Below are positions 620 to 33,059 of a stretch of 64,000 nucleotides of DNA, one piece after another. A program made the translations under genes and the position numbers. The notes below the pieces were generated by a model, which did not search any database, was not told the DNA's origin, and was given only the letters and a program-made list of their open reading frames with translations. Origin of the DNA: Candidatus Daviesbacteria bacterium RIFCSPHIGHO2_12_FULL_37_16. GTDB lineage: Bacteria > Patescibacteriota > Microgenomatia > Daviesbacterales > UBA10151. Every line of letters starts with the position of its first letter. Positions within the stretch are counted from its first letter, which is position 1. Location of the stretch: NCBI GenBank assembly GCA_001776785.1, contig MFDF01000023.1, positions 60,432-124,431 of the forward strand, written 5' to 3'.

Positions 620-2299
620 TTACTTAATTACACCTTCTTGTTTTAGGATCAAGACTAAGGCTGAGAAGTCTACAGCGTTTATTAATGAATCATCATTTAT
701 ATCAATCTCTGTTGGTAATCCAGTTGTCTTAGCCCAATTAGTCATCATTACAGACAGGTCAATCCTATCAACCCTTCCATCTTTATTACCATCACCTTTT
801 CTAAATTCCCCAACTCCTGGTTTAGTAACCTCTAGTTTTGGATCTGAAGAGTTAAGTGTTAGACCAGACCCTACTAAGGAAGCTATATAGTAGTACTCAG
901 GAGGGTTATTAATTCCGCCAACTCCGTCATCCTGGAACTCAGAAACCCAAGCAGAATTTGCAGTTGTTCCCACAAATGTGGCAGTTACAGGATTATTTAG
1001 TACACTATTAAATCCTAATATGCCATCATCCTCTCTTACCTCAAATGTCACTTGTCTTCCATTACATGCACTAGAACCTGTTACCCTAATAGTTACCAGT
1101 GAGCCCTGCATAACTGGATTTGAAGGTGTAATCCAGGCTGCATTAGTTAAGGTGCAAGTTGGTACAGGTGTTGGACTTGGAGTTGGAGATGGGGTTGGTG
1201 TTGGACCAGCTGAGCCAGTTGGTGTTGGGCTTGGAGATGGGGTTGGGGTTGCTCCAGATTGCAGAGTTAAAGCTAAATCAGTTGTTGAACCTAAAATATC
1301 CTGGTTATCTGAATTTCTTAAAATACCTGAAGTTGGTAAAATAGAAATAGTTGTGGGTCCAGCAGTCTTTGCCTTGAATGTAAATGCCATCATTTTAACC
1401 CCACTCCCACTTGTTTGGATACCAGGACTTGGTACTCCTCCTAAAAGTGAAACCTCACCAGTAGCATTATCATAAAACTGCTCAGCCCATTGGGTAATAA
1501 ATGAACCTGTGGGCTCAAGCCTGACAACTTCAAGTTTAGCTGCATCAAAACTCAATTTTGCATCAAATAAATTAGCAGCATCCTGATCACTTTGGGCTTG
1601 CAAAGTTACCAGAAACTCCTGCCCAACAGTTACAGGATTAGTATTACTAATTAAAGTGAAGCTTGCACTGCCTGTCTGTGAACCGATATTAATTGTCCCA
1701 TCACCTCTATTCTGCAAAATATTACTATTAGAATTGCTTGATATTGCCTGAGAAGCAGCACTAAAACTTATTGCTGCAACTCCAGATGCAATAATTGGTT
1801 TAAAAGTTAAAGTTGCAATTAACCCATCACCATTTACAGGTGCAACAGTTCCTCTAGATATGGTCACACTTCCAGGAGAGGTTGTGGTAGGTACTTCCAA
1901 TCCAAAACTACTACCAGTCCCATCTATGCTGACATATTCCAAAGAGGCGATTGGGTAATTAACTACTGCCTCAACAGCATTAATAGGTTCCCCATTAGTA
2001 TTTACCCTAACCTGAACCTGAAAATTCTGATTTTGTGTAGCTTGGGTAGTAACAGGAGATACATACACACAAGCAGTCCCAGTTGTTGTATTTTGACAAA
2101 CTGTTCCTGTTACATCAGCTTGTGAGGATGGTTTTTGGTATAAAAAACTAAATAAATTGTCCTTGAAAGGAGCACTTGAAGAGATAAAAAGATATGCTAC
2201 CAGCCCTAAGGCTGCGAGCAGTATTAAAGGGATTAAATGTACAATCCCATTTTGGAGTTTTAGTGTATTCTTTGCAGAATTAAAAAGCCTGGACAACAT
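620..2299 (-). CDS. Surface protein with two cohesin-like domains, a Pro/Thr linker and a C-terminal dockerin (two Ca-binding repeats)
   Basis: N-terminal TM anchor. PT linker TPTPSPSPTPTGSAGPTPTPSPTPSPTPVPT. C-terminus GDGNKDGRVDRIDLSVM...DINDDSLINAVDFSALVLIL is a classic type-I dockerin duplicated segment. Internal beta-sandwich segments resemble cohesin. Confidence 0.55.
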   Translation of the reverse strand: MLSRLFNSAKNTLKLQNGIVHLIPLILLAALGLVAYLFISSSAPFKDNLFSFLYQKPSSQADVTGTVCQNTTTGTACVYVSPVTTQATQNQNFQVQVRVNTNGEPINAVEAVVNYPIASLEYVSIDGTGSSFGLEVPTTTSPGSVTISRGTVAPVNGDGLIATLTFKPIIASGVAAISFSAASQAISSNSNSNILQNRGDGTINIGSQTGSASFTLISNTNPVTVGQEFLVTLQAQSDQDAANLFDAKLSFDAAKLEVVRLEPTGSFITQWAEQFYDNATGEVSLLGGVPSPGIQTSGSGVKMMAFTFKAKTAGPTTISILPTSGILRNSDNQDILGSTTDLALTLQSGATPTPSPSPTPTGSAGPTPTPSPTPSPTPVPTCTLTNAAWITPSNPVMQGSLVTIRVTGSSACNGRQVTFEVREDDGILGFNSVLNNPVTATFVGTTANSAWVSEFQDDGVGGINNPPEYYYIASLVGSGLTLNSSDPKLEVTKPGVGEFRKGDGNKDGRVDRIDLSVMMTNWAKTTGLPTEIDINDDSLINAVDFSALVLILKQEGVIK

Positions 2300-2342
2300 A
2301 CCTTATATTAAGTAACTCATATTAAATATAAGCCTGTCAAGC

Positions 2343-3959
2343 TTACTTTGTGAAAGTTATAATAAAGATCGTTTGTTTTAGATTTGGATTGTGCTCAACT
2401 GTGATTGGGCTTTCAGTTTGTGAGGATATAAATTTCGCTATATAGCCTTCTAATCCGCTGGAAAGCTTTAAGTTAGATTTAAACAAAAGGTGATCATAAT
2501 ATGGTTTTAGTAAAACGTTATAATCTATCCCTAATTGTGGGGAAGATGAGGTAATTTTTATCTTTATAATATGACCAATTTTTAGTATTTCTACTAAAAT
2601 TTTTGGATCTTTTTGGTCTGAGGATAAAAGTATTGAAAGTTCAATCAGTTTTTGGATCATAACCTCTATCCATTTTGAATCCAAAGGTATGGCAAAATCA
2701 GGGATAACATCTCCTGCAAATGGGGATTTTTGCTCGGTCATATTTATAGCTGCTTGTTCAGAGACTTCGTTAGCAGATAGAGAAAATTCAAGTTTTACTC
2801 CTAAGCTTTTGGCAAACACAATTTTTTGATTAACTATTTTTTTAGATAAAAGCGCAAGGTCAGTTAAAGTTTTAAATTCTTTGATTGGATGGTCTTCTAA
2901 TTCCTGGGCAATATTTAAATCTTCCTCAGATTTAGCTAAAAGTTCGATTTGTAAATCAAGGCTGGGAATGTTTGCTCTTAAAAGAGAGTTTCTGATTTCT
3001 GAAAGCAGCTTTAGATTGGAATTTTTTAATGGAATTAAATCTTGGTGAAGGGATTGACCTATTTTGGTAAATGCTTTTTCAGAAACAATAAATACAAGCT
3101 GGGTAACTTTGCTAGCTGAATCAACAATAGGTCTTAGCTGGATACTAATATATATAGGTTGGGGTTTTGTTTTAGTAGAAAGGGAAAAACCCTCAATTAT
3201 CCTGGTAGACCTGTCTTTTAGAACTATATCAATGTAGAGGCTGTCTTTAGTAGCAGGGTTATTTGTACTATCTAAGAGTTTTAAAACTTCTAAAGCAGGT
3301 TTATTTTTGTAGTCAATTTCAGAAAGCTTTAAATTGTTTTCAAAAGCTGAGTTTGCTGAAAGGATAATTAAATTGGGATCTGTTATAAAAACAATTTCTG
3401 CCAGACTTCTTAAGATTGATGCTTCTTTAGATTCTTGGATAACCAGTATATTTTTTAATTTTTCATAGATGGCTGACTTTAGATGGTATGTTCTATTAAC
3501 AATGTGCGAGAGTGGAATAATAACTACAAATGAGACAATATATAGAATTAATGTGAAAGGGTCCTCTTTAAATTTTTCAAGTAAGATTGGATTGTAATAA
3601 GAGTTGAAAACAAGAAGGGCAGATGATGTTGTTAAGAAAATTATTGAAGAGGGGAGGTTAACCAAGAAGCTTAGAGCTAGTGAGTAAAGGTGAATAAGAA
3701 TTAGAAATGGGCTGTAAAAACCTCCTGAGGATAAAACAAAGATTTGAACAAAAAGAGAACATAAGCTTATCAAAAAAGTGGTATTAAGGTTTTTTAAGAT
3801 TGGATTTATACTTTGATTTAATCTATTAGCTGAAACAATAAGGAAAATAATTAACAGGACTAAAATAATATTTACTATATTTGTAGGGATTTTATAGTAA
3901 ATTAAAGCTAAACTTAAAAGTGATGAAATTACTAAAAGGGTAGGAGTCAAAAAGGACAT
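2343..3959 (-). CDS. Polytopic membrane protein with a degenerate histidine-kinase-like C-terminal ATPase region; hypothetical sensor
   Basis: About 6 N-terminal TM helices. C-terminal SSGLEGYIAKFISSQ...TIFIITF resembles the G2/G3 boxes of HATPase_c. No canonical H-box was seen. Confidence 0.35.
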   Translation of the reverse strand: MSFLTPTLLVISSLLSLALIYYKIPTNIVNIILVLLIIFLIVSANRLNQSINPILKNLNTTFLISLCSLFVQIFVLSSGGFYSPFLILIHLYSLALSFLVNLPSSIIFLTTSSALLVFNSYYNPILLEKFKEDPFTLILYIVSFVVIIPLSHIVNRTYHLKSAIYEKLKNILVIQESKEASILRSLAEIVFITDPNLIILSANSAFENNLKLSEIDYKNKPALEVLKLLDSTNNPATKDSLYIDIVLKDRSTRIIEGFSLSTKTKPQPIYISIQLRPIVDSASKVTQLVFIVSEKAFTKIGQSLHQDLIPLKNSNLKLLSEIRNSLLRANIPSLDLQIELLAKSEEDLNIAQELEDHPIKEFKTLTDLALLSKKIVNQKIVFAKSLGVKLEFSLSANEVSEQAAINMTEQKSPFAGDVIPDFAIPLDSKWIEVMIQKLIELSILLSSDQKDPKILVEILKIGHIIKIKITSSSPQLGIDYNVLLKPYYDHLLFKSNLKLSSGLEGYIAKFISSQTESPITVEHNPNLKQTIFIITFTK

Positions 3960-23556: not shown

Positions 23557-24441
23557 ATGCTTTCTGCCCATGAAGTTAAACAATTAGAATTAAAGGCAAA
23601 TGAGATCCGCATTGACCTTATAAAGATGCTTGAGGAAGCAGGCAGCGGGCATTCTGCAGGCCCTTTGGGGATGGCAGATATATTTACTGCACTTTATTTT
23701 AATATTCTAAATATTGATTCCAAAAATCCAAATTTAGCTGAAAGAGATAGGTTAGTTTTATCAAATGGGCATATCTGCCCTGTACTTTATACTACTATGG
23801 CCCACAGGGGATTTTTTCCTGTTGAAGAGCTTAAGACGTTGCGAAAGCTGGGGAGTAGGTTGCAAGGGCATCCACACAGAGAAGCTTTACCTGGTTTAGA
23901 AACAACCTCAGGGCCTTTGGGTTCTGGACTTTCGCAAGCCAGTGGGATGGCAGCTGTAGCTAAGATGGATAAGCTTCCCTGGAGGGTTTACTGCTTAATG
24001 AGTGATGGGGAGCAGGATGAGGGGAATACCTGGGAAGCTGTGATGTTTGCAGCAAAATATAAACTGGATAATTTAACTGCCATTATGGATAGAAATCACA
24101 TTCAAATTGATGGTTTTACAGAAGATATCATGCCTTTGGATTCCCTAAAAGCTAAGTATGAGGCATTTAATTGGTATGTAATAGAAATTGATGGGCATAA
24201 TATGCAGGAGATTATTGATGCCTGTCATGAAGCTGAGGCAATTCATGATAAGCCAGTTTTGATTTTGGCCCATACAATTCCCGGGAAGGGTGTGGATTTT
24301 ATGGAGAATGATTATAAATGGCATGGAGCTCCTCCAGGGGCTTCTGATATGGAAGGTGAACCTAAAAAAGAAGAGCAGGCAAAAATTGCACTTAAGGAAC
24401 TAAGAACTTTAAGAGGAAAGATACGATCGGAGCATGAATGA
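23557..24441 (+). CDS. tktA: Transketolase, N-terminal (TPP-binding) subunit
   Basis: GHSAGPLGMADI, SNGH, GPLGSGLSQASGMA. Split-gene arrangement. Confidence 0.85.
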   Translation: MLSAHEVKQLELKANEIRIDLIKMLEEAGSGHSAGPLGMADIFTALYFNILNIDSKNPNLAERDRLVLSNGHICPVLYTTMAHRGFFPVEELKTLRKLGSRLQGHPHREALPGLETTSGPLGSGLSQASGMAAVAKMDKLPWRVYCLMSDGEQDEGNTWEAVMFAAKYKLDNLTAIMDRNHIQIDGFTEDIMPLDSLKAKYEAFNWYVIEIDGHNMQEIIDACHEAEAIHDKPVLILAHTIPGKGVDFMENDYKWHGAPPGASDMEGEPKKEEQAKIALKELRTLRGKIRSEHE

Positions 24442-25424
24442 TTAATCAAAACTTAAAATTAAATCCTAAACTTTTTGATGAGGATATTGAGGAGGCTCCT
24501 ACCAGGAAGGGGTTTGGGGAGGGGTTGGTAATTGCAGGCGATGAAAATCCTAATGTGGTGGCTCTTTGTGCAGATTTAACAGAGTCTACTAGGATGGAGG
24601 AGTTTAAAAAGAAAAATCCTTCTAGGTTTTTTGAGGTTGGGGTGGCTGAGCAGAATTTGGTTACTGTTGGATCAGGTATGGCAGCAGCTGGAAAGATTCC
24701 CTTTGTTGCAAGTTATGCTACTTTTTCTCCAGGCAGGAATTGGGAGCAGATTAGGACTACTATTTGTTATAACAATGTGCCTGTAAAGATTGTTGGATCC
24801 CATGCAGGGATTTCTGTAGGACCTGATGGAGCAACACATCAGGCTTTAGAAGATATAGCTTTAATGAGGGCTTTACCAAATATGGTGGTAATTGTTCCGG
24901 TGGATGCAATTGAGGCCAAAAAAGCCACTATTGCAATGAGTAAAGATAAGATGCCTGATTATTTAAGACTTTCCAGATCTAATGTTCCAACTGTTACAAC
25001 TGAGGAAACACCTTTTGAAATTGGGAAGGCTGAAGTTTTTTTTGAGGGTAAAGATGTAACAGTCATTGCCTGCGGGCAGATGGTCCATAGAGCACTTTTG
25101 GCTGCAGAGGATTTGAAAAAGAGTAATATAAGTGTCCGGGTAATAAATTGTTCCACTATTAAACCTTTAGACTCAAAAACAATATTAAAAGCGGCAGAAG
25201 AAACAGGAGCAATTGTTACTGTTGAAGAGCACCAGGTAAATGGAGGGTTAGGCGGGGCAGTTTCAGAGCTTGTAAGTGCCCATTTTCCTGTACCTATAAA
25301 AATAATAGGGATTGAGGACCATTTTGGAGAGAGTGGGGAACCTGAAGAGCTATTAGAAAAGTTTGGGTTGACTGTAGAAAATATTATAAAGGCTGTAACG
25401 CAGGTTTTAAGAATGAAACATTAA
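24438..25424 (+). CDS. tktB: Transketolase, C-terminal (Pyr + C-terminal domain) subunit
   Basis: 4-nt overlap with the N-terminal subunit. FEVGVAEQNLV, GPDGATHQALEDIALMRALPNM. Confidence 0.85.
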   Translation: MINQNLKLNPKLFDEDIEEAPTRKGFGEGLVIAGDENPNVVALCADLTESTRMEEFKKKNPSRFFEVGVAEQNLVTVGSGMAAAGKIPFVASYATFSPGRNWEQIRTTICYNNVPVKIVGSHAGISVGPDGATHQALEDIALMRALPNMVVIVPVDAIEAKKATIAMSKDKMPDYLRLSRSNVPTVTTEETPFEIGKAEVFFEGKDVTVIACGQMVHRALLAAEDLKKSNISVRVINCSTIKPLDSKTILKAAEETGAIVTVEEHQVNGGLGGAVSELVSAHFPVPIKIIGIEDHFGESGEPEELLEKFGLTVENIIKAVTQVLRMKH

Positions 25425-25444
25425 AAAGTAGGAGGTGAGTTTAT

Positions 25445-25576
25445 ATGATGGGTTTTGGGAGTTATGGAATGATGAATTCAGGTTTTGGTTTTTTGGCCAG
25501 TTTATTTTGGCTGGTAATATTTATTGATTTTATACTACTAGGTGTTTGGCTCTGGAAACAAATTAATAAAAAATAG
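25445..25576 (+). CDS. Possible 43-aa Met/Gly-rich single-TM peptide
   Basis: Strong RBS AAGTAGGAGGTGAG 6 nt upstream. MMGFGSYGMMNSGFGFLASLFWLVIFIDFILLGVWLWKQINKK. Immediately upstream of the CsoR operator. Confidence 0.3.
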   Translation: MMGFGSYGMMNSGFGFLASLFWLVIFIDFILLGVWLWKQINKK

Positions 25577-25615
25577 AGTGAATAAATAATATCTTGCCAG
25601 AATACTACTTATAAA

Positions 25616-25648
25616 TTAATATATCCCCATAGGGGGGATATATTAATG
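25616..25648 (+). promoter_or_regulatory. CsoR-type operator: GC-cored inverted repeat TTAATATATCCCC-ATA-GGGGGGATATATTAA overlapping the csoR start
   Basis: A 13-bp perfect inverted repeat with a C/G-tract core, as in characterised CsoR operators. It abuts the csoR ATG (25646). Confidence 0.5.
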
Positions 25649-25915
25649 GCTTACAGACCTAAAGATCTACAGGAAAGAATCCTTCACAGGTTAAAAATTT
25701 CAAGAGGACATCTAAATAAAGTAATTAACATGATTGAGAGTGATGAGTATTGTATAGATGTACTTACGCAATCCCAAGCCGTTCAAAAAGCAATTAAAGA
25801 AACTGATGCTCTGATTTTGGAAAACCATTTAAAAGGGTGTGTTGTTGATCACATACAAAGAGGAGAGACAAAAGCTACTATCGATGAAATAATGAAAATT
25901 TTTAGAAAACAATAA
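25646..25915 (+). CDS. csoR: CsoR/RcnR-family metal-sensing transcriptional repressor
   Basis: 89 aa. Conserved Cys...His...Cys (YCIDV, CVVDH). DUF156 fold. Confidence 0.75.
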   Translation: MAYRPKDLQERILHRLKISRGHLNKVINMIESDEYCIDVLTQSQAVQKAIKETDALILENHLKGCVVDHIQRGETKATIDEIMKIFRKQ

Positions 25916-25930
25916 AAAGGAGGTGAATAT

Positions 25931-26572
25931 ATGAAACAAAGAGACCCTTTAATTTACGGAATAATAGGTGTGCTCATTGGTGGTGCATTTGTATGGTTTT
26001 CGGCTACAAATGCAGTTAATAACAATAACTATGGCATGATGCAGATGATGGGTATGCGTGGAGGAAACCAGGGTATGATGATCAGTTCAACCACGATAGA
26101 TGCTCATTTTATCGAGCAAATGATTCCCCACCACGAAGATGCTATTACGATGGCAAAACTTGCTCAAGAAAAAGCTAGGCGTCCTGAGATTAAAACGCTT
26201 GCCCAAAACATTATCAATTCCCAAAGCCGGGAAATTGATCAGATGAAAGGTTGGTATAAAAATTGGTTTGGCAGAGAATTACCTGTAGGTACCCAAGTAA
26301 TGAGCCAACATGGAATGATAGGAGGAAGTGGTATGCATATGGGTATGATGGGTGACGAGACGGATATGGCAAGACTTGAACAAACTGCTGATTTTGATAA
26401 AGCGTTTATTGAGGAGATGATCCCTCACCACCAGATGGCTGTAATGATGGCAAGTATGCTTAAAAGTAGTACAAATAGAGATGAGATGAGAAAACTTGCA
26501 GATGATATTATCACTGCTCAAACTAGTGAAATAGATCAGATGAGGCAGTGGTATATAAACTGGGGGTACTAA
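25931..26572 (+). CDS. DUF305 copper-resistance-associated protein with Met-rich inserts
   Basis: Duplicated F(I)EQMIPHHEDAI / FIEEMIPHHQMAV motifs. Met-rich MMQMMGM and MHMGMM. N-terminal TM. Confidence 0.7.
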   Translation: MKQRDPLIYGIIGVLIGGAFVWFSATNAVNNNNYGMMQMMGMRGGNQGMMISSTTIDAHFIEQMIPHHEDAITMAKLAQEKARRPEIKTLAQNIINSQSREIDQMKGWYKNWFGRELPVGTQVMSQHGMIGGSGMHMGMMGDETDMARLEQTADFDKAFIEEMIPHHQMAVMMASMLKSSTNRDEMRKLADDIITAQTSEIDQMRQWYINWGY

Positions 26573-26603
26573 GGAGGTGAGTACCATAAAAAAGTATTTA
26601 ACA

Positions 26604-26753
26604 ATGTGGCAGGTGTGGGCTGGAATTACAGTTGTACTTGCTATATTAGTGATTAGTGGGGTAACTAATTTTGCTGGTTTTTTGCCTTTCATATTGCTGT
26701 TAGCGTGTCCTATCATAATGATGTTTATGATGCGAGGGCACAAGCACAAATAA
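26604..26753 (+). CDS. DUF2933-like 49-aa membrane mini-protein (LLLACPIIMMFMMRGHKHK tail)
   Basis: Small TM protein with a Cys-Pro, Met-rich, His tail typical of DUF2933 found in metal-resistance loci. The start could instead be the in-frame GTG at 26577. Confidence 0.4.
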   Translation: MWQVWAGITVVLAILVISGVTNFAGFLPFILLLACPIIMMFMMRGHKHK

Positions 26754-26763
26754 AATAAAGGGG

Positions 26764-27036
26764 GTGATTAAATTGTTAAAAGAAAAAGAATTTGCCAATG
26801 CTTTTACTGTTGTCAGTTTGGGGGTTTATGTAGTTTGCAGGGTATTATCACTTATTGCACCTGACTTTCTTTTTAGTGTAGGGAAAAGCTGGTTTCATAC
26901 CTTTAGCTTAGACAGTATGAGGGCTGTTTCACCAATGGATTTAGGTACATTTATATTTGGGGCAGTTAGCTTAGCTTTTTTAGTATGGATAACTACATAC
27001 TCAGGGGCAGCCTTATATAATAAGTGGGCAAAATAA
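26764..27036 (+). CDS. Small two-TM membrane protein (DUF5676-like?)
   Basis: 90 aa. GTG start with RBS AAAGGGG. Confidence 0.4.
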   Translation: MIKLLKEKEFANAFTVVSLGVYVVCRVLSLIAPDFLFSVGKSWFHTFSLDSMRAVSPMDLGTFIFGAVSLAFLVWITTYSGAALYNKWAK

Positions 27037-27165
27037 GTTTAGTGAATAGAATAATTAAAAACACATTTACGATTACGCCTGTCTGCCGACAGGCAGGCCT
27101 TTAAGGTTTTCGACTCTGAGGGACGAGCCCTCAGGCTCAGACTCGAATGAGTGGAAAGCTAAATT

Positions 27166-27606
27166 TTGCAAAATATGAAAATGAGTAATAAAAATTTTGT
27201 GATTTCAAATAGGTTAAAAACCCTCCTAATGCTTTCGATAGTTGTGGTCTATCTACACTTTTTTGAAGAAGTTATTACGGGTTTTTATAACAATGATTGG
27301 ATAATGAAGTATATTAGCAGTCTCTTCCAAAATATTAATCAAGCGCAATATTACGCGTCGCATATTGTTTGGATTCTCATGATTGGTCCAGCTGCCCTAC
27401 TGGTTTTAGGAGGAAAATGGACTCTAAGAGTGTTAACACTTTATGGTATCTTCTTTATTTTTGAACTACATCATTTGATTGATGCTATTAGAACACTTTC
27501 CTACTATCCAGGAGTAATTACAAATATTGTGTTTGAAATAATTGGATTATTTTATTGGAAAGAGTTAGTAAATAACTGGAGGAGTGCTGAAGCATATGAA
27601 AACTAA
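27166..27606 (+). CDS. HXXEE-domain membrane protein
   Basis: LHFFEEV is the eponymous H-x-x-E-E motif. 4 TM helices. Confidence 0.6.
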   Translation: MQNMKMSNKNFVISNRLKTLLMLSIVVVYLHFFEEVITGFYNNDWIMKYISSLFQNINQAQYYASHIVWILMIGPAALLVLGGKWTLRVLTLYGIFFIFELHHLIDAIRTLSYYPGVITNIVFEIIGLFYWKELVNNWRSAEAYEN

Positions 27607-29857
27607 AGAAATAATTAAAACTTATATTTGTCCAATGCATCCTGAAGTAACATCAGACAATCCTGGTAGATGTCCTAAGTGTGGAATGAAGCTTGTTGAG
27701 ACAGAGATAAAAATGCCTGTCCGCCGAAGCCTGAGTGAAGGTGGAGAACATAAAGATATGGATCATGGAGGTCATGTAATGAAGCCTGTTTCTGAGATGT
27801 CTTTTTGGGAAAAGTTTAAGATGAGTATGGGGATGACTATGGGGATGGAGCACACCGGGCTTGCAGGCAGGGAGATGGCTAAAATGATGGAGGAGGATAT
27901 CAGGAATAAGTTTTTTGTTTCTTTAATTCTCACAATACCCATTGTTTTATATTCCCCTCTGGGAATGAATCTTTTAGGGTTGAGACTTCCTGAGCCAATC
28001 CCAGGAGTTTGGATAATGTTTTTGCTTACAACCCCTGTTTATTTTTACTGCGGGTGGATCTTCCTTTACTCAAGCTACATTGCTTTAAAGCAAAAAACTT
28101 TAAACATGGCAGTTTTAATTGCTGTTGGGATTACTGCTGCCTACATATTTTCAATTGTTTTAACACTTTTGGGATCTGTGGAGTCTTTTTATGAAGCTGC
28201 TGCTATGCTTACAACTTTTGTTTTATTTGGGCACTGGATGGAGATGAAGAGTAGAAGAGGCACAACAGATGCGCTGCAGGCTCTTTTTAATTTAGTTCCC
28301 CCGCAAGCCAGGGTTTTACGGGATGGCAAAGAGCTGCTAGTACCAACTTCTGAGGTTAAAATTGGGGATGTTTTAATTTTAAAGCCCGGAGATAAAGTAC
28401 CAGTTGATGGTGTTATTTTAGATGGAGAAACAGCTATTGATGAGTCTTTGGTTACAGGTGAGTCTCTGCCTGTTTCTAAAAAAAGAGGTGATCTGGTAAT
28501 AGGAGGGTCAATAAATACTTCAGGATCAGTTAGGTTTAAAGCCACTAAGGTTGGGGAGGATACAGCTTTAGCCCAAATTGTAAAAATGGTTGAAACTGCT
28601 CAAAACTCCAAGGCCCCCGGGCAAAAACTAGCCGATAAATTTGCTAAGTACCTTGTAATAGTTGCAGTTGGTGGAGGTTTACTTACCTTTTTAGTCTGGT
28701 TTTTTATACTTGGACAGCCCTTACTTTTTGCATTAACTTTTGCAATATCCACAGTAGTGATTGCCTGTCCTGATGCTTTAGGGCTTGCTACCCCTACTGC
28801 AGTAGCAGTTGGTACAGGACTTGGGGCAAAACATAATATTTTAATAAAAGATGCACCTACTTTAGAGCAGGTTTCTAAGATCCAGGCTGTGGTTTTAGAT
28901 AAAACAGGAACACTGACAGAGGGTAAACCAAAAATTACAGATATTGCTGTTATAGCAGGTTACTCTAAAGAAGAGGCATTAATCTTGGTTGCAGCTGCTG
29001 AGGCAAAATCTTCGCACCCCCTAGCAAATGCAGTGCTTGAGGAATTAAAAAATAGAAAATTGGAATTATCAGGGAATGTTGAAAAGTTTGAGAATTTATC
29101 AGGTTTAGGGGTTAGGGCAGTGGTGGATAATAAAAAAATCCTTGTAGGGACAATTAAATTAATGAAAGATGAAGGAGTTGAGATTAATAAAAATTTGCAG
29201 GATAAGATTGATGAGTTTTTGAAAGATGGTGAAACTATTATGGTTTTAGCAGTGAATAAAGCTGGAGTAGCAGCAATAGGAGCACAAGACCCCATAAAAC
29301 CTAATGCCAAAAAAGCTATTGAGAGGTTAAAAGAGTTGGGGATAGAGACTGCCATGATTACAGGGGATAACAAAGCAACAGCTGATGTAGTTGCAAAAAA
29401 ACTGGGGATAGAGAGGGTTTTTGCAGAGGTGCTGCCAAAAGAAAAGTCTGAGTATGTTAAAAAATTACAGAGAGAGGGAAAGTTTACTGCTATGGTTGGG
29501 GATGGGGTGAATGATGCACCAGCTTTGGCCCAGGCAGATATAGGGATAGCTATTGGGGCAGGTACAGATGTTGCAATAGAGACTGCAAAGGTAGTGCTGA
29601 TGAAATCAGACCCTGCAGATGTTTTGAGGGCTATAAAACTTTCTAAAGCAACAGTTTTGAAGATGAAGCAAAACCTTTTTTGGGCTTCTATTTATAATTT
29701 ACTGGCAATCCCTATTGCAGCAGGGGTTTTATATCCTAACTTTGGGATAATGCTGCGGCCTGAATTTTCAGCGCTTTTAATGAGTATTTCTTCTGTTATT
29801 GTTGCAACTAATGCAGTTTTATTAAACAGGGCAGAAAAAGATTTAATTGCCCTTTGA
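27596..29857 (+). CDS. copA: Copper-translocating P1B-type ATPase (CopA/CopB-like) with an N-terminal Zn-ribbon heavy-metal-binding domain and a Met/His-rich region. TM6 motif is CPD rather than CPC/CPH.
   Basis: CPMHPEV...PGRCPKCGM (HMBD). MGMTMGMEH. DKTGTLT, TGDN, GDGVNDAP. TM7 YN, TM8 MSISS. Start taken at the ATG at 27596 (RBS GGAGGAG), overlapping the HXXEE stop. Confidence 0.85.
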   Translation: MKTKEIIKTYICPMHPEVTSDNPGRCPKCGMKLVETEIKMPVRRSLSEGGEHKDMDHGGHVMKPVSEMSFWEKFKMSMGMTMGMEHTGLAGREMAKMMEEDIRNKFFVSLILTIPIVLYSPLGMNLLGLRLPEPIPGVWIMFLLTTPVYFYCGWIFLYSSYIALKQKTLNMAVLIAVGITAAYIFSIVLTLLGSVESFYEAAAMLTTFVLFGHWMEMKSRRGTTDALQALFNLVPPQARVLRDGKELLVPTSEVKIGDVLILKPGDKVPVDGVILDGETAIDESLVTGESLPVSKKRGDLVIGGSINTSGSVRFKATKVGEDTALAQIVKMVETAQNSKAPGQKLADKFAKYLVIVAVGGGLLTFLVWFFILGQPLLFALTFAISTVVIACPDALGLATPTAVAVGTGLGAKHNILIKDAPTLEQVSKIQAVVLDKTGTLTEGKPKITDIAVIAGYSKEEALILVAAAEAKSSHPLANAVLEELKNRKLELSGNVEKFENLSGLGVRAVVDNKKILVGTIKLMKDEGVEINKNLQDKIDEFLKDGETIMVLAVNKAGVAAIGAQDPIKPNAKKAIERLKELGIETAMITGDNKATADVVAKKLGIERVFAEVLPKEKSEYVKKLQREGKFTAMVGDGVNDAPALAQADIGIAIGAGTDVAIETAKVVLMKSDPADVLRAIKLSKATVLKMKQNLFWASIYNLLAIPIAAGVLYPNFGIMLRPEFSALLMSISSVIVATNAVLLNRAEKDLIAL

Positions 29858-29900
29858 ATGTTTACAAGCGGGTTTTAGTATACTAAAATCATAAAACCTT

Positions 29901-30665
29901 ATGGATTCTGATAATAATTCTACCTTTATATCTACTCCCCTGGCAATTGTTTTAGGTTCTTTTGTAATAGCTGTTGCTATTTTAATCAGCGGCGGGGTAA
30001 TACAGCTTCAGGGAGTGAAAACACTGGGAGCCCAGGCTAGTCCACTGCCTCAGGTTGGGGCATCTCCACTTCCTCAAGCAGAGGAGCCCGCTGGTCCTAT
30101 GGAGGTTTCTCTGGATGATGATCCTGTTATGGGTGATAAAAATGCTCCCTTAACTATGGTTGAATTTTCTGATTATGAGTGTCCATTTTGTAAAAGGTAT
30201 TTTGATCAGACATTGCCTGAAATTAAAAAGGACTATGTAGACAGCGGCAAGCTAAAGATAGTGTTTAGGGATTTGCCTTTATCTTTCCATGACCCAATGG
30301 CTACAACTGAGGCAATTGCAGCAAATTGTGCCAGGGAACAGGGAGGAGATAGTAAATATTTCCAGTTTCATGATGAGATGTTTAAAAGGACTACCTCTAA
30401 TGGGGATGGGTTAGATAGGGCAGAGATTGATAAAATTGCTGCAGATGTAGGATTAAATGCTTCTAATTTTAAAACTTGTTTAGATACTGAGAAGTATAAA
30501 GATGAGGTTTCTAAAGATTTAGCTGATGCTTCAAATGTAGGGGCAGATGGGACACCAACATTTTTTATAGGTAAAAGTGAGGCAGGAAATAAAATTACAG
30601 GAACTAAACTTGTGGGTGCACAGCCTTACTCTGCATTCAAAACTATACTTGATGGTATAAAATGA
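29901..30665 (+). CDS. DsbA-family thiol:disulfide oxidoreductase with an N-terminal TM anchor
   Basis: YECPFCKRY active site, thioredoxin fold. Confidence 0.7.
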   Translation: MDSDNNSTFISTPLAIVLGSFVIAVAILISGGVIQLQGVKTLGAQASPLPQVGASPLPQAEEPAGPMEVSLDDDPVMGDKNAPLTMVEFSDYECPFCKRYFDQTLPEIKKDYVDSGKLKIVFRDLPLSFHDPMATTEAIAANCAREQGGDSKYFQFHDEMFKRTTSNGDGLDRAEIDKIAADVGLNASNFKTCLDTEKYKDEVSKDLADASNVGADGTPTFFIGKSEAGNKITGTKLVGAQPYSAFKTILDGIK

Positions 30666-30671
30666 GTATAG

Positions 30672-31148
30672 ATGAAATTTTTACTGACTGCCCTATCAGT
30701 TTCATTATTTTACATCCTGTTAAATGTTTATATTTCAAACTATCAGGTAATAAACCAGGCTTTTTTGGGGGATTTTACATTTGAATATAGGTCAGCATTA
30801 ATGTTTTCTTTAATCCAGGGACTTACAACTGCATTATCTGCAACAAGCTTAATCTTTTTAATGATAATTTCTGTTTTAACTGGTTTAAATTCTGCCATGC
30901 TTATAAAAAAAGTTAATAAAGGAGGTGGGGTGCACTTAATGTTTGGAGGGTCAATGCTGGGGACATTAGGTAGTGGATGTGTATCCTGTGGATTGCCACT
31001 TTTAGGGGTTTTAGGAATGAGCGGGAGTATAGCTTACTTACCGTTTAAGGGATTAGAATTTTCAGTTTTATCAGCAGGATTACTTTTAATATCTTTTTAT
31101 CTTCTTTTGAGAAATTCAAAGAAAGAGTGTGTAATTAAATCTTCTTAG
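30672..31148 (+). CDS. Polytopic membrane protein with an intramembrane CVSC motif (possible DsbB/VKOR-analogous partner of DsbA)
   Basis: 4-5 TM helices. GSGCVSCGLP. 6 nt downstream of dsbA. Confidence 0.45.
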   Translation: MKFLLTALSVSLFYILLNVYISNYQVINQAFLGDFTFEYRSALMFSLIQGLTTALSATSLIFLMIISVLTGLNSAMLIKKVNKGGGVHLMFGGSMLGTLGSGCVSCGLPLLGVLGMSGSIAYLPFKGLEFSVLSAGLLLISFYLLLRNSKKECVIKSS

Positions 31149-32124
31149 CAACAATTTTGGGGTTTTTATTTAAACTTTCTTTTAATTTATTTAAAGTTAA
31201 TAGTCCTTCCTGGGGACCCATGGCTGAGATTACTGATGCAGAGTTTGATGTACCCCACCTGATGGCTTCTGAGAGGGGATTTCCATAAAAGAGTCCTGCT
31301 AGAGTGGCAGTAGCAAAAGCATCACCTGCCCCTGTTTTTTGGACTAGTTCAGCTGGGAAAACATCTAATTTATAATAATTTTCTCCATCAAAACAAAAAG
31401 AACCATTTTTTCCATCTGTAATTACCACATTTTTTGGACCTAAATCAGCAAGTTTTTTTAGGAGTTTTTTTATTTCTATTTTTTCATCATCTTTATAACC
31501 TAGAAACTTTTTAGCTTCTTCCAAATTCATTATCAAAAATTGGGTTCTAGATAAAAGTTGGCCATTTTTTTTAGCCCCCAAACTTATTTGGAAAGTCCCT
31601 GGCTGGTAAGCAAGTTTGGCTTTGGTCCTTTCTAAGTAATTTAAAATCTGGTCAATTAAGTTAGTGTCTACGAAGTTGGGAGCAAGAGAAGTTAGATAGA
31701 CCCATTTTGTTAAATCCAGATCTGGTAAATTAAATTTCCAATGGTGGTGGTGGACTAAAATAGTCCTCTCCCCTTTGTAATTTAAAATAATATTGTGGTT
31801 AGTTGGTAAATCTGGATCATGGATAACAAACCTTGTATTTACCCCTTCTTTTTTGAGCTTTGCAATTATTCTTTCATCTGAGGCATCTATATCTTTTTTC
31901 CCTACATTTGTATAAATTGCAGTTTTTAATCCAAGTCTTGAAGCACCAACTGCATTATTTGAAGCATTTCCACCAACAAAAGAGATGGGATCATCAACAG
32001 GAATTTTGTAGCCAAAGGGTAAACTTAAATGAGGAGTACCAGAGATATCTGTTACTTGCGCATCTTTTAAGGGGACAAAAGTATCAATTACAGTATCACC
32101 TATGGTGATAAGATCAAAAGCCAT
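31135..32124 (-). CDS. PfkB-family carbohydrate kinase (ribokinase-like)
   Basis: GGNASNNAVGASRLG and C-terminal TGAGDAFATATLAGL motifs. Confidence 0.75.
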   Translation of the reverse strand: MAFDLITIGDTVIDTFVPLKDAQVTDISGTPHLSLPFGYKIPVDDPISFVGGNASNNAVGASRLGLKTAIYTNVGKKDIDASDERIIAKLKKEGVNTRFVIHDPDLPTNHNIILNYKGERTILVHHHHWKFNLPDLDLTKWVYLTSLAPNFVDTNLIDQILNYLERTKAKLAYQPGTFQISLGAKKNGQLLSRTQFLIMNLEEAKKFLGYKDDEKIEIKKLLKKLADLGPKNVVITDGKNGSFCFDGENYYKLDVFPAELVQKTGAGDAFATATLAGLFYGNPLSEAIRWGTSNSASVISAMGPQEGLLTLNKLKESLNKNPKIVAKKI

Positions 32125-32138
32125 GTTAATTTAGTTTA

Positions 32139-33059
32139 TCATGGATATTTTTGTTTTACCTGATCTGGAGTGAGAACTTCTTTTATTGAGTGGTTATCAT
32201 TTATTATTACAACCTGGTCTGCATTATTTTGGGCTAAGTTTTTAATGTGGATTGCAGGGTGGACTGACCTCCAGAAATAATGGACAAACTCCACAATTTG
32301 GTCATGGGTCATGCCTTCCCCTTTTGCCCTTAAAGCTTCCTCTGCCTGGTCTCTCCATTTAAGGGACATTTCATAATTTGGGACATATAAGACATTCATA
32401 AAATCTATTAAATCCCAAAGAGGATAATATTCATCCAGTTTAGAATTTATATCTTTAGCAAGTTGGATGTGTTCCGGGGTATCTAAAGCAGGTAAACCTG
32501 AATTAAAGATTGATTCATCCTCAACTTTTCTAGCACCCAGCATCCAGCCATCATAGAAAATAAAATGTGGTTTTTTAGTAACAGTATTCCAGCCAGTCCT
32601 GTCCCCGTCCCCATTAAAAGCTCCCTTATCATAAATAGGTATTTTAACTTCAGTTCCATCTTTCATGGTCTGAAGATCTTTTAGATTTTGGATTGCAAGT
32701 GGGATATCATGGGTTACCCCCCTTCTTATGTACCTTGGGTCTGATTCTCTTAGTTTGTTTAACTCATCATGGGTAAGATAGTGGTTATCAATAGATAGAT
32801 GAAAAGATTCATAGCCAAAATGGTCAAGTAAGGTTTCTAGTATTTCACCTTGAGTGGTTTTGCCTGCCCCCTGAATTGCAGAGACACCCACAATTATTCC
32901 TTCCTCTGAAGTTTTATTTTTGGATAGATTAATTAGCTTTTCAATAAAAGGTAAGTAATATTTTTGGAGTTCAATTTTTAGGGATTCTTTTGAAATTTCA
33001 GGACGTTTTTTTAGGGGTTCATCAAATAGGGTTAAGTCATTATCTAAGTGAAAGTTCAT
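32139..33059 (-). CDS. P-loop kinase of the PRK/uridine-kinase superfamily (glycerate 3-kinase-like)
   Basis: GVSAIQGAGKTT Walker A in a context resembling plant-type glycerate kinase. Confidence 0.45.
   Translation of the reverse strand: MNFHLDNDLTLFDEPLKKRPEISKESLKIELQKYYLPFIEKLINLSKNKTSEEGIIVGVSAIQGAGKTTQGEILETLLDHFGYESFHLSIDNHYLTHDELNKLRESDPRYIRRGVTHDIPLAIQNLKDLQTMKDGTEVKIPIYDKGAFNGDGDRTGWNTVTKKPHFIFYDGWMLGARKVEDESIFNSGLPALDTPEHIQLAKDINSKLDEYYPLWDLIDFMNVLYVPNYEMSLKWRDQAEEALRAKGEGMTHDQIVEFVHYFWRSVHPAIHIKNLAQNNADQVVIINDNHSIKEVLTPDQVKQKYP

What the first reader, a model, noticed from the sequence alone, without database searches (positions are those of the whole stretch)
25445..31148. CsoR-regulated copper island built from a chain of tiny membrane proteins feeding into a CPD-motif P1B-ATPase
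Order: 43-aa Met/Gly peptide, operator palindrome, csoR, Met-rich DUF305, DUF2933-like 49-aa, 90-aa two-TM protein, nested GC hairpins, HXXEE protein overlapping copA, DsbA, CxxC membrane protein. The ATPase has CPD in TM6 where Cu+ pumps have CPC and CopB has CPH, plus an HMBD Zn-ribbon and Met/His tract. The roles of HXXEE, DUF2933 and DUF5676 in metal handling are undescribed, and their tight linkage suggests a coherent periplasmic/membrane Cu-handling system.
Basis: partly seen in the sequence, partly recalled or inferred. Interest (0 to 1): 0.55.

Follow-up and report, generated by a model that had tools for sequence, protein, structure and literature searches.

The report
CsoR-controlled copper efflux operon, CPD-type pump
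This is a real copper-detoxification gene cluster in an uncultured groundwater bacterium, built around an untested 'CPD' variant of a known copper pump and a changeable set of tiny membrane proteins; it is an interesting variant of a familiar system, not a new kind of system.

Summary
The window comes from a Candidate Phyla Radiation bacterium (ACD_30, Daviesbacteria-like). The island is identical in three independent assemblies.

**The pump.**
- The CPD motif (TGT CCT GAT) is genuine. All 120 closest homologues and all clade members in 115 related loci carry it.
- In my tree the CPD pumps form one clade, sister to CopB (CPH) pumps.
- The CPD subtype was already named 'P1B-3b' in Rhizobiales in 2017. 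I found no report that it has been tested biochemically.

**Regulation.** CsoR has the full Cu(I)-sensor residue set. It sits behind the only perfect 14-nt-arm palindrome in the 64 kb window, which overlaps a promoter-like -10 element.

**Accessory genes.**
- They recur around the pump, but each is optional: CsoR in 38 of 80 loci, DUF2933 in 27, DUF5676 in 27, HXXEE in 6.
- In the reverse test, 16 of 18 long DUF5676-seeded loci carry a P1B pump. That pump can be CPD, CPC or CPH type.
- They therefore form a modular copper toolkit, not a fixed relay tied to CPD.

Two components have no Pfam family: the 43-aa Met/Gly peptide and the CxxC membrane protein paired with DsbA.

Verdict: a new variant of a known kind, of moderate interest.

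The parts
25445..25576 (+). 43-aa single-pass membrane peptide ('pep43'). It has a Met/Gly/aromatic-rich N-terminal tail (predicted outside), one TM helix, and a WLWKQINKK tail (predicted inside).
   Evidence: The ORF has an AGGAGGTGAG ribosome-binding site 6 nt upstream. It has no Pfam or NCBIfam match. Homologues occur in 14 of 80 CPD-pump loci, usually just upstream of the pump, and in 13 of 35 DUF5676-seeded loci.
25594..25622 (+). Promoter-like site: TTGCCA, 17-nt spacer, TAATAT.
   Evidence: This is a consensus scan match of 9 out of 12 positions. The -10 hexamer lies inside the left arm of the palindrome. It is a pattern match only, not evidence of function.
25615..25647 (.). CsoR-type operator: a perfect 14-5-14 palindrome, ATTAATATATCCCC ATAGG GGGGATATATTAAT. 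It ends on the csoR start codon.
   Evidence: See (unique in the window; 0.01 expected by chance). Similar ATAxCCC-N-GGGxTAT boxes lie 35-60 nt upstream of csoR in about 29 of 43 related csoR genes.
25646..25915 (+). csoR, a Cu(I)-sensing repressor of 89 aa.
   Evidence: PF02583 at 84.8 bits. Y35, C36, H61, C65 and E81 are all present.
25931..26572 (+). Membrane-anchored CopM/DUF305 copper-binding protein of 213 aa, containing 25 Met and 7 His.
   Evidence: PF03713 at 156.7 bits. NCBIfam CopM NF049983 at 115.5 bits, above its cut-off of 90. There is an N-terminal TM helix, two Met-rich tracts and two MIPHH motifs.
26577..26753 (+). DUF2933 two-TM protein (58 aa from GTG, or 49 aa from the ATG at 26604). 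Its C-terminal motif is LLLACPIIMMFMMRGHKHK.
   Evidence: PF11666 at 35.6 bits. The family motif CP(L/I)xHxxMMxxGGHKH is conserved in 30 ORFs from related loci. Public gene callers missed this gene.
26764..27036 (+). DUF5676 two-TM protein of 90 aa.
   Evidence: PF18926 at 58.6 bits. Invariant residues are C25 (TM1), H45 in the SWFH loop, G66, W75 and N86. Of 18 long loci seeded with this family, 16 contain a P1B pump.
27077..27147 (+). Two GC-rich hairpins (27077-27098 and 27109-27147) in the 129-nt spacer.
   Evidence: See (z = -3.6). No Rfam hit, no tRNA, unique in the window and not conserved in related loci. No proper T-tract follows them.
27166..27606 (+). HXXEE-family four-helix membrane protein. 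The likely start is the ATG at 27175 (143 aa). HFFEE is at residues 28-32 and ELHH at 97-100.
   Evidence: PF13787 at 34 bits. The AlphaFold2 model has mean pLDDT 90. Invariant residues are H28, E31, E32, E97, H99 and H100. It overlaps the pump gene by 11 nt.
27596..29857 (+). P1B-type copper ATPase of 753 aa, with these features: HMBD zinc ribbon (residues 12-31), Met/His tract, TGES 287-290, CPD 391-393 (nt 28766-28774), DKTGT 435-439, NLFWASIYNLLAIP 693-706, and MSISSVIVATN 729-739.
29861..29889 (+). Promoter-like site (TTTACA, 17-nt spacer, TAAAAT) between the pump gene and dsbA.
   Evidence: One of the three best promoter-like matches in the region, at 10 out of 12 positions. It is a pattern match only. 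It leaves open separate expression of dsbA and the CxxC gene.
29901..30665 (+). Membrane-anchored DsbA-like thiol:disulfide oxidoreductase. The CPFC active site is at residues 94-97.
   Evidence: PF13462 at 107 bits and PF01323 at 70.8 bits. CPFC position.
30672..31148 (+). 158-aa polytopic membrane protein with an invariant GxGCxxCG motif (C103 and C106). It is the conserved partner of the DsbA gene.
   Evidence: No Pfam or NCBIfam family matches. Only nine homologues were found. It lies next to a DsbA-like gene in 11 of the 13 loci where it occurs; in the other two (L028, L080) no DsbA-like gene was detected. The AlphaFold2 model has pLDDT 70 and no structural match in the PDB.

Best explanation
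This is a chromosomal copper-detoxification operon of a CPR (Microgenomates/Daviesbacteria-like) bacterium.

**Shown**
- The repressor gene has the complete Cu(I)-type CsoR residue set.
- It lies directly behind a perfect CCCC-N5-GGGG palindrome that overlaps a promoter-like -10 element.
- The pump is a P1B ATPase. Its transmembrane copper-site residues match Cu(I) pumps (YN in TM5, MxxSS in TM6), except that the second position after CP is Asp.
- The pump belongs to a CPD clade that is sister to CopB (CPH) pumps.

**Inferred**
- *Regulation.* Without copper, CsoR occupies the palindrome. Cu(I) binding releases it, and csoR, the CopM-like gene, DUF2933 and DUF5676 are transcribed. By read-through past the hairpins, so are HXXEE, the pump, and perhaps dsbA and the CxxC gene.
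- *The pump.* It expels cytoplasmic Cu(I) by the ordinary P-type cycle. Cys391, Asp393 and Tyr700 replace the Cys/Cys/Tyr site of CopA.
- *CopM-like protein.* This Met/His-rich protein is anchored on the outer face and buffers exported copper.
- *DsbA and its CxxC partner.* They keep exported protein thiols correctly oxidised under copper stress.
- *The small membrane proteins.* They are interchangeable accessories, not obligate subunits. Each carries a plausible copper ligand set:
  - pep43: an outer Met-rich tail;
  - DUF2933: CP..MM..MM.GHKH at the inner end of TM2;
  - DUF5676: a TM Cys plus an outer-loop His;
  - HXXEE: a His/Glu cluster at the predicted outer ends of TM1 and TM3.
For: **CsoR and operator**
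- PF02583 match with Y35, C36, H61, C65 and E81 present.
- The palindrome is unique in the window.
- Similar boxes lie upstream of csoR in about 29 of 43 related loci.
- Published S. aureus CsoR boxes have the same form (PMC10233261).

**Pump**
- The Cu-subfamily model TIGR01511 scores 594 bits.
- The best solved relatives are AfCopA and LpCopA at about 558 bits. In those alignments only the second Cys of CPC is replaced.
- CPD is conserved in 120 of 120 close homologues.
- CPD is conserved in all 11 clade members found through DUF5676.
- The NJ tree places CPD as a monophyletic sister group of CPH.

**Copper context in relatives**
- Counts in 80 CPD-pump loci: CsoR 38, DUF305 20, DUF2933 27, DUF5676 27, DsbA 21.
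- Other close neighbours include cupredoxin (10), multicopper oxidase (4), HMA (4) and YHS (4).

**Modularity**
- Gene order and content vary between loci.
- DUF5676, pep43 and DUF2933 also flank CPC and CPH pumps that are only 43-46% identical to this one.

**Sequence integrity**
- The island is identical in three independent assemblies.
Against: - There is no experimental datum for any component.
- Asp is a hard ligand and is atypical for Cu(I).
- The hairpins between DUF5676 and HXXEE could terminate transcription. No second CsoR box precedes the pump, so CsoR control of the pump in this genome rests on assumed read-through.
- The 43-aa gene lies upstream of the operator.
- Topologies come from the positive-inside rule only.
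- The census uses contigs that are often cut short, so the frequencies are lower bounds.
- Iterated HMMs on very short hydrophobic proteins may include a few false members.
Confidence: 0.75

Rival explanations
1. One reading: the small membrane proteins (pep43, DUF2933, DUF5676, HXXEE) physically associate with the pump and pass copper to or from it, forming one multi-subunit export machine.
For: - Genomic linkage is tight in both directions. At least one accessory gene is present in 64 of 80 pump loci. A P1B pump is present in 16 of 18 long DUF5676-seeded loci.
- HXXEE overlaps or abuts the pump gene here. One search shows the same in L009, L031 and L071, and in a Chloroflexota contig.
- Every small protein has invariant Cys, His, Met or Glu residues placed near a membrane face.
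Against: - No single accessory gene occurs in more than 48% of loci, and HXXEE occurs in only 6 of 80.
- Accessory genes sit on either side of the pump and in varying order.
- They accompany three different pump types.
- 16 of 80 loci have none of them, although some of those contigs are short.
Confidence: 0.2
2. The Cys-to-Asp change alters specificity: the CPD pump exports Cu(II) or another divalent metal, not Cu(I).
For: - Asp is a hard ligand.
- In ZntA-type pumps a transmembrane Asp is needed for Zn/Pb binding (background knowledge).
- CDF (Cation_efflux) genes lie near the pump in two relatives.
Against: - The neighbours are overwhelmingly copper-specific: Cu(I)-type CsoR, CopM, cupredoxin, multicopper oxidase, HMA and YHS.
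- The TM5 YN and TM6 MxxSS residues of the Cu(I) sites are intact.
- The sister CPH pumps, once called Cu(II) pumps, were re-assigned to Cu(I). This is background knowledge (Purohit et al. 2018) and I did not re-read the paper here.
Confidence: 0.12
3. The pump supplies copper to extracytoplasmic cuproproteins, as FixI/CcoI-type pumps do, and is not a detoxification pump.
For: Cupredoxins and multicopper oxidases neighbour the pump in some relatives. DsbA could assist folding of such proteins.
Against: - No cuproenzyme is encoded in or beside this island.
- The CsoR logic switches genes on when copper is in excess.
- A CopM-type copper-buffering protein is a resistance trait (PMC4335983, listed).
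Confidence: 0.06
4. CPD is a sequencing or assembly error for CPC, or the gene is a decaying pseudogene.
For: None found.
Against: - GAT differs from TGT or TGC at two bases.
- The sequence is identical in three independent assemblies.
- CPD is present in 120 of 120 homologues at 75-100% identity.
- All catalytic motifs are intact.
Confidence: 0.01

Closest known systems
CPD-motif 'P1B-3b' Cu-ATPases of Rhizobiales (Xanthobacter autotrophicus, Nitrobacter hamburgensis, Bradyrhizobium sp.; Cubillas et al. 2017, PMC5552934)
   Same: CPD in the CPx position, YN(x)4P in TM7, an MSxSS-type TM8 motif, and grouping with CopB/P1B-3.
   Different: - The window pump belongs to a tight CPR sub-clade, 66-100% identical within itself and 63% or less to other CPD representatives.
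- It has an HMBD zinc ribbon in place of HMA-like N-termini.
- It has IYN where most CPD and CPH pumps have GYN.
- No functional data were found for either group.
CsoR-regulated copB-mco and copXL loci of Staphylococcus aureus (PMC10233261)
   Same: A CsoR repressor with a GC-cored palindromic box controls a CopB-lineage pump. The pump travels with an extracytoplasmic copper-binding accessory protein, often on mobile DNA.
   Different: - The S. aureus pumps are CPH with a poly-His N-terminus.
- Their accessories are CopL or a multicopper oxidase, not CopM/DUF305, DUF2933, DUF5676, HXXEE or DsbA.
- csoR is encoded elsewhere in S. aureus.
CopA of Legionella pneumophila and Archaeoglobus fulgidus (PDB 3RFU, 3J08, 7R0G)
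   Same: - They are the best solved relatives, at about 556-558 bits.
- All P-type motifs and the TM5 and TM6 copper ligands are the same.
- The LpCopA N-terminus aligns to the HMBD ribbon.
   Different: They have CPC, not CPD, and are only about 45% identical. They belong to the P1B-1 branch.
CopM of Synechocystis sp. PCC 6803 (DUF305; PMC4335983)
   Same: The DUF305 protein passes the NCBIfam CopM cut-off. It is Met/His rich and predicted to be extracytoplasmic.
   Different: Here it is membrane-anchored, duplicated internally, and under CsoR. In Synechocystis it is under the CopRS two-component system.
MerR-copA-cupredoxin-DUF2933-ICMT clusters of Alteromonas, Vibrio and Pseudoalteromonas (PMC8478169)
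   Same: A DUF2933 gene is linked to a copper P-type ATPase.
   Different: The regulator is different (MerR/CueR), the pump is CPC type, and the companions are different. The function of DUF2933 is unknown there too.
Single-span or small regulatory subunits of other P-type ATPases (KdpF, FXYD proteins, sarcolipin/phospholamban); comparison from background knowledge
   Same: Tiny membrane proteins encoded with, or acting on, a P-type pump. This is a 'works like' analogy for pep43 and DUF2933 only.
   Different: There is no sequence relationship and no evidence here of binding. I know of no such subunit established for P1B pumps.

Membership tests
CsoR (Cu(I)-sensing CsoR/RcnR family) | Pfam PF02583 fold match | tested here: met
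   84.8 bits against a cut-off of 22.8.
CsoR (Cu(I)-sensing CsoR/RcnR family) | x-C-H-C ligand fingerprint plus second-shell Tyr35 and Glu81 (M. tuberculosis numbering, from background knowledge) | tested here: met
   Y35, C36, H61, C65 and E81 are all present.
CsoR (Cu(I)-sensing CsoR/RcnR family) | GC-cored palindromic operator at its own promoter | tested here: met
   A perfect 14-5-14 palindrome with a CCCC-N5-GGGG core overlaps a promoter-like -10 element. Analogous boxes occur in relatives.
CsoR (Cu(I)-sensing CsoR/RcnR family) | Cu(I)-dependent release from DNA | not testable with these tools
   Needs EMSA or footprinting.
P1B-1 (CopA-type Cu(I) ATPase) | CPC in TM4 (TM6 in 8-helix numbering) | tested here: not met
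   The motif is CPD, at residues 391-393.
P1B-1 (CopA-type Cu(I) ATPase) | N(x)6YN(x)4P and M(x)2SS(x)5[N/S] | tested here: met
   NLFWASIYNLLAIP and MSISSVIVATN.
P1B-1 (CopA-type Cu(I) ATPase) | N-terminal HMA (CxxC ferredoxin-fold) domain | tested here: not met
   No HMA hit. The N-terminus is an HMBD zinc ribbon plus a Met/His tract.
P1B-3 (CopB-type) | CPH in TM4 | tested here: not met
   The motif is CPD. GAT is one base away from the His codon CAT.
P1B-3 (CopB-type) | GYN(x)4P in TM5 and MSxST in TM6 | tested here: not met
   The window pump has IYN and MSISS. Other CPD and CPH representatives mostly have GYN.
P1B-3 (CopB-type) | Phylogenetic grouping with CPH pumps | tested here: met
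   In the NJ tree of 155 sequences the CPD clade is sister to the seven CPH representatives. This is a distance tree without support values.
P1B-3 (CopB-type) | His-rich N-terminus | tested here: inconclusive
   Residues 37-100 contain 4 His and 12 Met, so the tract is Met-rich more than His-rich.
'P1B-3b' CPD subtype (Cubillas 2017) | CPD, YN(x)4P, an MSxSS-type TM8 motif and few N-terminal His | tested here: met
   The Rhizobiales sequences themselves were not retrieved for direct alignment.
CopM / DUF305 | Score above the NCBIfam CopM and Pfam DUF305 cut-offs | tested here: met
   115.5 bits against 90, and 156.7 bits against 27.
DsbA-like oxidoreductase | Thioredoxin fold with a CxxC active site, exported or membrane-anchored | tested here: met
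   PF13462 and PF01323 are above their cut-offs. CPFC is at residues 94-97, and there is an N-terminal TM helix.
DsbB / VKOR / DsbD / MerC (candidate identity of the CxxC membrane protein) | Sequence or fold match to any of these | tested here: not met
   - No Pfam hit, even at E up to 1, for nine family members.
- No PDB fold match.
- No similarity to a MerC-like neighbour of a relative.
- The model has only moderate confidence (pLDDT 70), so the fold test is weak.
DUF2933, DUF5676 and HXXEE (Pfam) | Score above the Pfam gathering cut-off | tested here: met
   35.6 against 21, 58.6 against 27.6, and 34 against 25.

The most novel reading that the evidence does not exclude
One or more of the tiny membrane proteins (pep43, DUF2933, DUF5676, HXXEE) are dedicated small subunits of P1B copper pumps. 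They would dock on the pump inside the membrane and hand Cu(I) to its entry site or take it from its exit site. That would make them the first micropeptide partners described for heavy-metal P-type ATPases. In the same reading, the Cys-to-Asp change adapts the pump's release step to such partners.
Probability: 0.12. Interest if true: 0.65.

Novelty: new variant of a known kind. Interest (0 to 1): 0.35.

Why it matters
- **Untested pump variant.** CPD pumps form a coherent clade that is widespread in CPR bacteria and has no biochemical characterisation that I could find. The CPx residue is central to metal selection. A natural Cys/His-to-Asp series (CPC, CPH, CPD) gives a clean test of how the second ligand tunes Cu(I) binding and release.
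- **Likely horizontal spread.** The pump is 66-79% identical across many CPR phyla and also in bins labelled Bathyarchaeota, Micrarchaeota and Bacteroidota. In relatives it sits beside recombinase, relaxase and defence genes. This points to horizontal spread of copper resistance among ultra-small groundwater organisms.
- **Candidate copper-handling proteins.** Six small or uncharacterised membrane protein families now have a statistically recurrent copper-pump context and defined invariant residues. They are three Pfam families of unknown function (DUF2933, DUF5676, HXXEE), the DUF305/CopM family, and two families with no Pfam entry (pep43 and the DsbA-linked CxxC protein). This makes them concrete candidates for study.

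Tried and rejected
**The hairpins**
- Rfam scan of 24000-32500 at E up to 1 found nothing.
- The tRNA/tmRNA scan found none near the island.
- Treating them as a repeated element or conserved RNA failed. They are unique in the window. Related loci give only chance 12-21-nt matches, one of which is coding sequence of another ATPase.

**The CxxC membrane protein**
- No Pfam match.
- Foldseek against the PDB gave no match below E = 3.
- hhalign against a MerC-like neighbour gave probability 0.6%.
- The afdb50 fold library was unavailable.

**HXXEE**

**Reciprocal DUF5676 scan**
- The 20-sequence DUF5676 alignment was too diverse for the scan. A five-sequence alignment worked, so the reciprocal test covers only the window's DUF5676 sub-branch.

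**Literature and composition**
- Searches for a characterised CPD pump returned only the 2017 Rhizobiales phylogeny. One other hit used 'CPD' to mean critical point drying.
- A Chem Rev review gave no usable statement on P1B-3.
- A compositional signature of recent insertion was rejected: island GC is 0.35-0.40, within the window's range.

Full report

Yes. Nine + strand ORFs lie at the stated coordinates.

| Gene | Match |
|---|---|
| CsoR | PF02583 |
| DUF305 | also above the NCBIfam CopM cut-off |
| DUF2933, DUF5676, HXXEE | above the Pfam cut-offs |
| P1B ATPase | N-terminal HMBD zinc ribbon |
| DsbA-like thioredoxin | above the Pfam cut-offs |
| 43-aa peptide and 158-aa CxxC protein | no family |

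- The palindrome ATTAATATATCCCC-N5-GGGGATATATTAAT (25615-25647) has perfect 14-nt arms. It is the only perfect inverted repeat of this size in the 64 kb window, against 0.01 expected.
- The two GC-rich hairpins (27077-27147) fold better than all 200 shuffles.
- HXXEE overlaps the pump's ATG by 11 nt.
- CPD is encoded by TGT CCT GAT at 28766-28774.

**2. Where does the window come from?**

- The pump is 100% identical to 'ACD_30C00005G0034 [uncultured bacterium]'.
- The HXXEE protein is 100% identical to a Candidatus Daviesbacteria protein.
- The window is therefore from a Candidate Phyla Radiation (Microgenomates-type) bacterium.
- The 6-kb island is 100% identical in three independently assembled contigs from different samples.
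- It lies in ordinary chromosomal context. Pentose-phosphate genes (rpiB, rpe, split transketolase) lie upstream, and a pfkB kinase and a DeoC aldolase lie downstream.
- Its GC content is unremarkable.

**3. The CPD pump**

- All 120 closest homologues (75-100% identity) have CPD together with N(x)6YN(x)4P and M(x)2SS(x)5N.
- Alignment to solved AfCopA and LpCopA shows that only the second Cys of CPC is replaced. It also shows that the LpCopA N-terminus matches the HMBD ribbon.
- An exhaustive search of 1.84 billion 50%-identity cluster representatives returned the best 150 hits. By my motif scan they were 135 CPC, 7 CPH, 5 CPD and 3 unclassified. On inspecting the alignment, the three were CPD (P0132), SPD and CIC.
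- The six top-scoring hits are the six CPD sequences, at 49-63% identity. Identity then falls to 48% or less for CPC pumps.
- A neighbour-joining tree puts all CPD sequences, plus the one SPD variant, in a single clade sister to the CPH (CopB) representatives.
- This agrees with Cubillas et al. 2017. They saw CPD in three Rhizobiales pumps, grouped them with P1B-3, and named them a new subtype.
- I found no paper reporting biochemistry on a CPD pump.
- GAT is one base from the His codon CAT and two bases from a Cys codon. That fits descent from, or exchange with, CPH, and rules out a single-base error.

**4. The regulator**

- CsoR carries Y35, C36, H61, C65 and E81. This is the Cu(I) ligand set and second-shell pair of M. 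tuberculosis CsoR (background knowledge).
- A promoter-like TTGCCA-17-TAATAT lies at 25594-25622, with its -10 hexamer inside the left arm of the palindrome. The right arm ends on the csoR ATG.
- A loose search found ATAxCCC-N-GGGxTAT boxes 35-60 nt upstream of csoR in about 29 of 43 csoR genes at related loci.
- Published S. aureus CsoR boxes have the same form.
- No second box exists in the window. CsoR control of HXXEE and the pump therefore depends on read-through of the hairpins.
- The hairpins lack a proper T-tract.
- They are absent from every related locus.
- They have no Rfam or tRNA match.
- A promoter-like site with 10 of 12 matches lies just before dsbA.

**5. Do the neighbours travel with the pump?**

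*Pump-seeded scan.* A scan of one genome per GTDB species found at least 550 relatives, and the best 80 loci were kept. Iterated HMMs built from the window proteins gave these counts per 80 loci:

| Family | Loci (of 80) |
|---|---|
| CsoR | 38 |
| DUF2933 | 27 |
| DUF5676 | 27 |
| DsbA | 21 |
| DUF305 | 20 |
| pep43 | 14 |
| CxxC protein | 13 |
| HXXEE | 6 |

- 64 of 80 loci have at least one of these genes. Many contigs are cut short, so these are lower bounds.
- The CxxC protein lies next to a DsbA-like gene in 11 of its 13 loci. In L028 and L080 no DsbA-like gene was detected.
- The commonest order is CsoR, then optionally DUF305, then DUF5676, DUF2933 or pep43, then the pump, then optionally DsbA and the CxxC protein. 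Genes also occur on the other side of the pump.
- Only L020 approaches the window's full set.
- Among the 150 nearest unassigned neighbouring ORFs, the most frequent families include cupredoxin (10), multicopper oxidase (4), YHS (4) and HMA (4).

*Reverse test.* I seeded a metagenome scan with the window's DUF5676 sub-branch and recovered 35 loci.
- 23 of them contain a P1B pump, including 16 of the 18 loci of 5 kb or more.
- The partner pump is CPD in 11 loci (69-79% identical to the window pump), ordinary CPC CopA in 4 (43-46% identical) and CPH in 2 (45% identical).

The small proteins are therefore real, recurrent companions of copper pumps in these organisms. They are optional and are not specific to CPD.

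*HXXEE.* A sub-branch at least 60% identical to the window protein lies in CsoR-DUF305 operons directly before a pump. This occurs in another metagenome contig (L087, JGI) and in a Chloroflexota (Limnocylindrales) contig, where the pump is HMA-type. More distant HXXEE members at 41-47% identity are not pump-linked.

**6. What the small proteins look like**

Topologies below follow the positive-inside rule and are inferences.

- **pep43.** A Met/Gly/aromatic tail, then one TM helix, then WLWKQINKK. Similar peptides are conserved at protein level in many loci.
- **DUF2933.** Two TM helices, with CP(L/I)xHxxMMxxGGHKH at the predicted cytoplasmic end of TM2.
- **DUF5676.** Two TM helices. Invariant residues are Cys25 in TM1 and His45 in an outer SWFH loop.
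- **HXXEE.**
  - The AlphaFold2 model is confident (pLDDT 90) and shows a four-helix membrane bundle.
  - The invariant residues H28, E31, E32, E97, H99 and H100 fall at the predicted outer ends of TM1 and TM3.
- **CxxC protein.**
  - It has an invariant GxGCxxCG motif.
  - The model is moderate (pLDDT 70), with the CxxC region poorly defined.
  - It has no fold or family match.
- **DUF305 protein.** An N-terminal anchor, two Met-rich tracts and two MIPHH motifs.

**7. Mechanism**

The best-supported reading is a CsoR-derepressed copper detoxification operon:
- the CPD pump expels Cu(I);
- the anchored CopM-like protein buffers copper outside the cell;
- DsbA and its CxxC partner protect exported thiols;
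- the small membrane proteins are optional helpers.

The sequence features, family memberships, phylogeny and co-occurrence are shown. Copper specificity, CsoR control of the distal genes, topologies and every role assigned to the small proteins are inferred.

The census does not require it.

**8. Mobility**

- The pump is 66-79% identical across many CPR lineages. It is also this similar in bins labelled Bathyarchaeota (four MAGs), Micrarchaeota, Bacteroidota and Ignavibacteriaceae.
- In relatives it sits beside a serine recombinase, a relaxase plus a TraG-like coupling protein, and a CBASS defence cluster.
- This pattern suggests horizontal transfer. It is an inference. Some bin labels are unreliable, and no species-tree comparison was made.

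**9. Verdict**

- The system is a new variant of a known kind, a CopB-lineage copper efflux operon under CsoR.
- Three aspects remain unexplored: the biochemistry of CPD, the pump-linked small membrane families, and an unclassified membrane partner for DsbA.
CPD and the DUF2933 linkage were already in the literature, and the 'coherent chain' idea is weakened by the modular census.

Noticed in passing
window 26979-27065 (compare L095:3409-3411): One public contig (Logan SRR29904085) is 100% identical to the island except for an 87-nt deletion. The deletion removes the 3' end of the DUF5676 gene and the spacer up to just before the first hairpin. It may be a natural population variant that lacks intact DUF5676, or an assembly artefact.
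   Followed up: partly
L008:10214-11094, L013:6559-7430, L014:10226-11091, L037:7336-8180, L057:2826-3697; also L005:4527-5402: In several relatives a conserved pair of unannotated proteins of about 140 and 150 aa directly abuts the CPD pump gene, with DUF5676 further downstream in L008, L013 and L014. The one sequence whose Pfam result was shown individually (L008:10214-10636) has no match. This is another pump-linked module that is absent from the window.
   Followed up: no
L091:1883-2059 and L091:5759-9334: A free-standing 58-aa HMBD zinc-ribbon protein and a pep43 homologue lie upstream of an 82%-identical pump. A relaxase (Replic_Relax) and a TraG/VirD4-like coupling protein lie downstream. 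The pump therefore sits on a putative conjugative element in that organism.
   Followed up: no
L090:8596-12544: An 82%-identical pump lies next to a LexA-like gene and a CBASS anti-phage cluster (SMODS, bacHORMA, Cap8, AAA). This indicates a variable or defence-island context.
   Followed up: no
window 26577-26753: In the four public contigs shown that carry this island, no DUF2933 gene was called; a gap is left between DUF305 and the next gene. L020, which has a DUF2933 homologue, conserves the residues before the internal ATG. This suggests a non-ATG start (GTG at 26577, or nearby).
   Followed up: partly
window 61202-62770 (- strand): A large serine recombinase (Resolvase, Recombinase and Zn_ribbon_recom domains) is encoded about 30 kb downstream of the island. 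It belongs to the same family as the recombinase that directly follows the pump in L001. No link to the island was established.
   Followed up: no
window 620-3959 (- strand): Two large ORFs of 559 and 538 aa have no Pfam match at E up to 1e-5.
   Followed up: no
L102, L104 and L107: Some CPR contigs carry both a CPD pump and a separate CPC CopA within 8 kb. The DUF5676 and DUF2933 genes are duplicated between them. Pump types therefore coexist and do not replace each other.
   Followed up: partly
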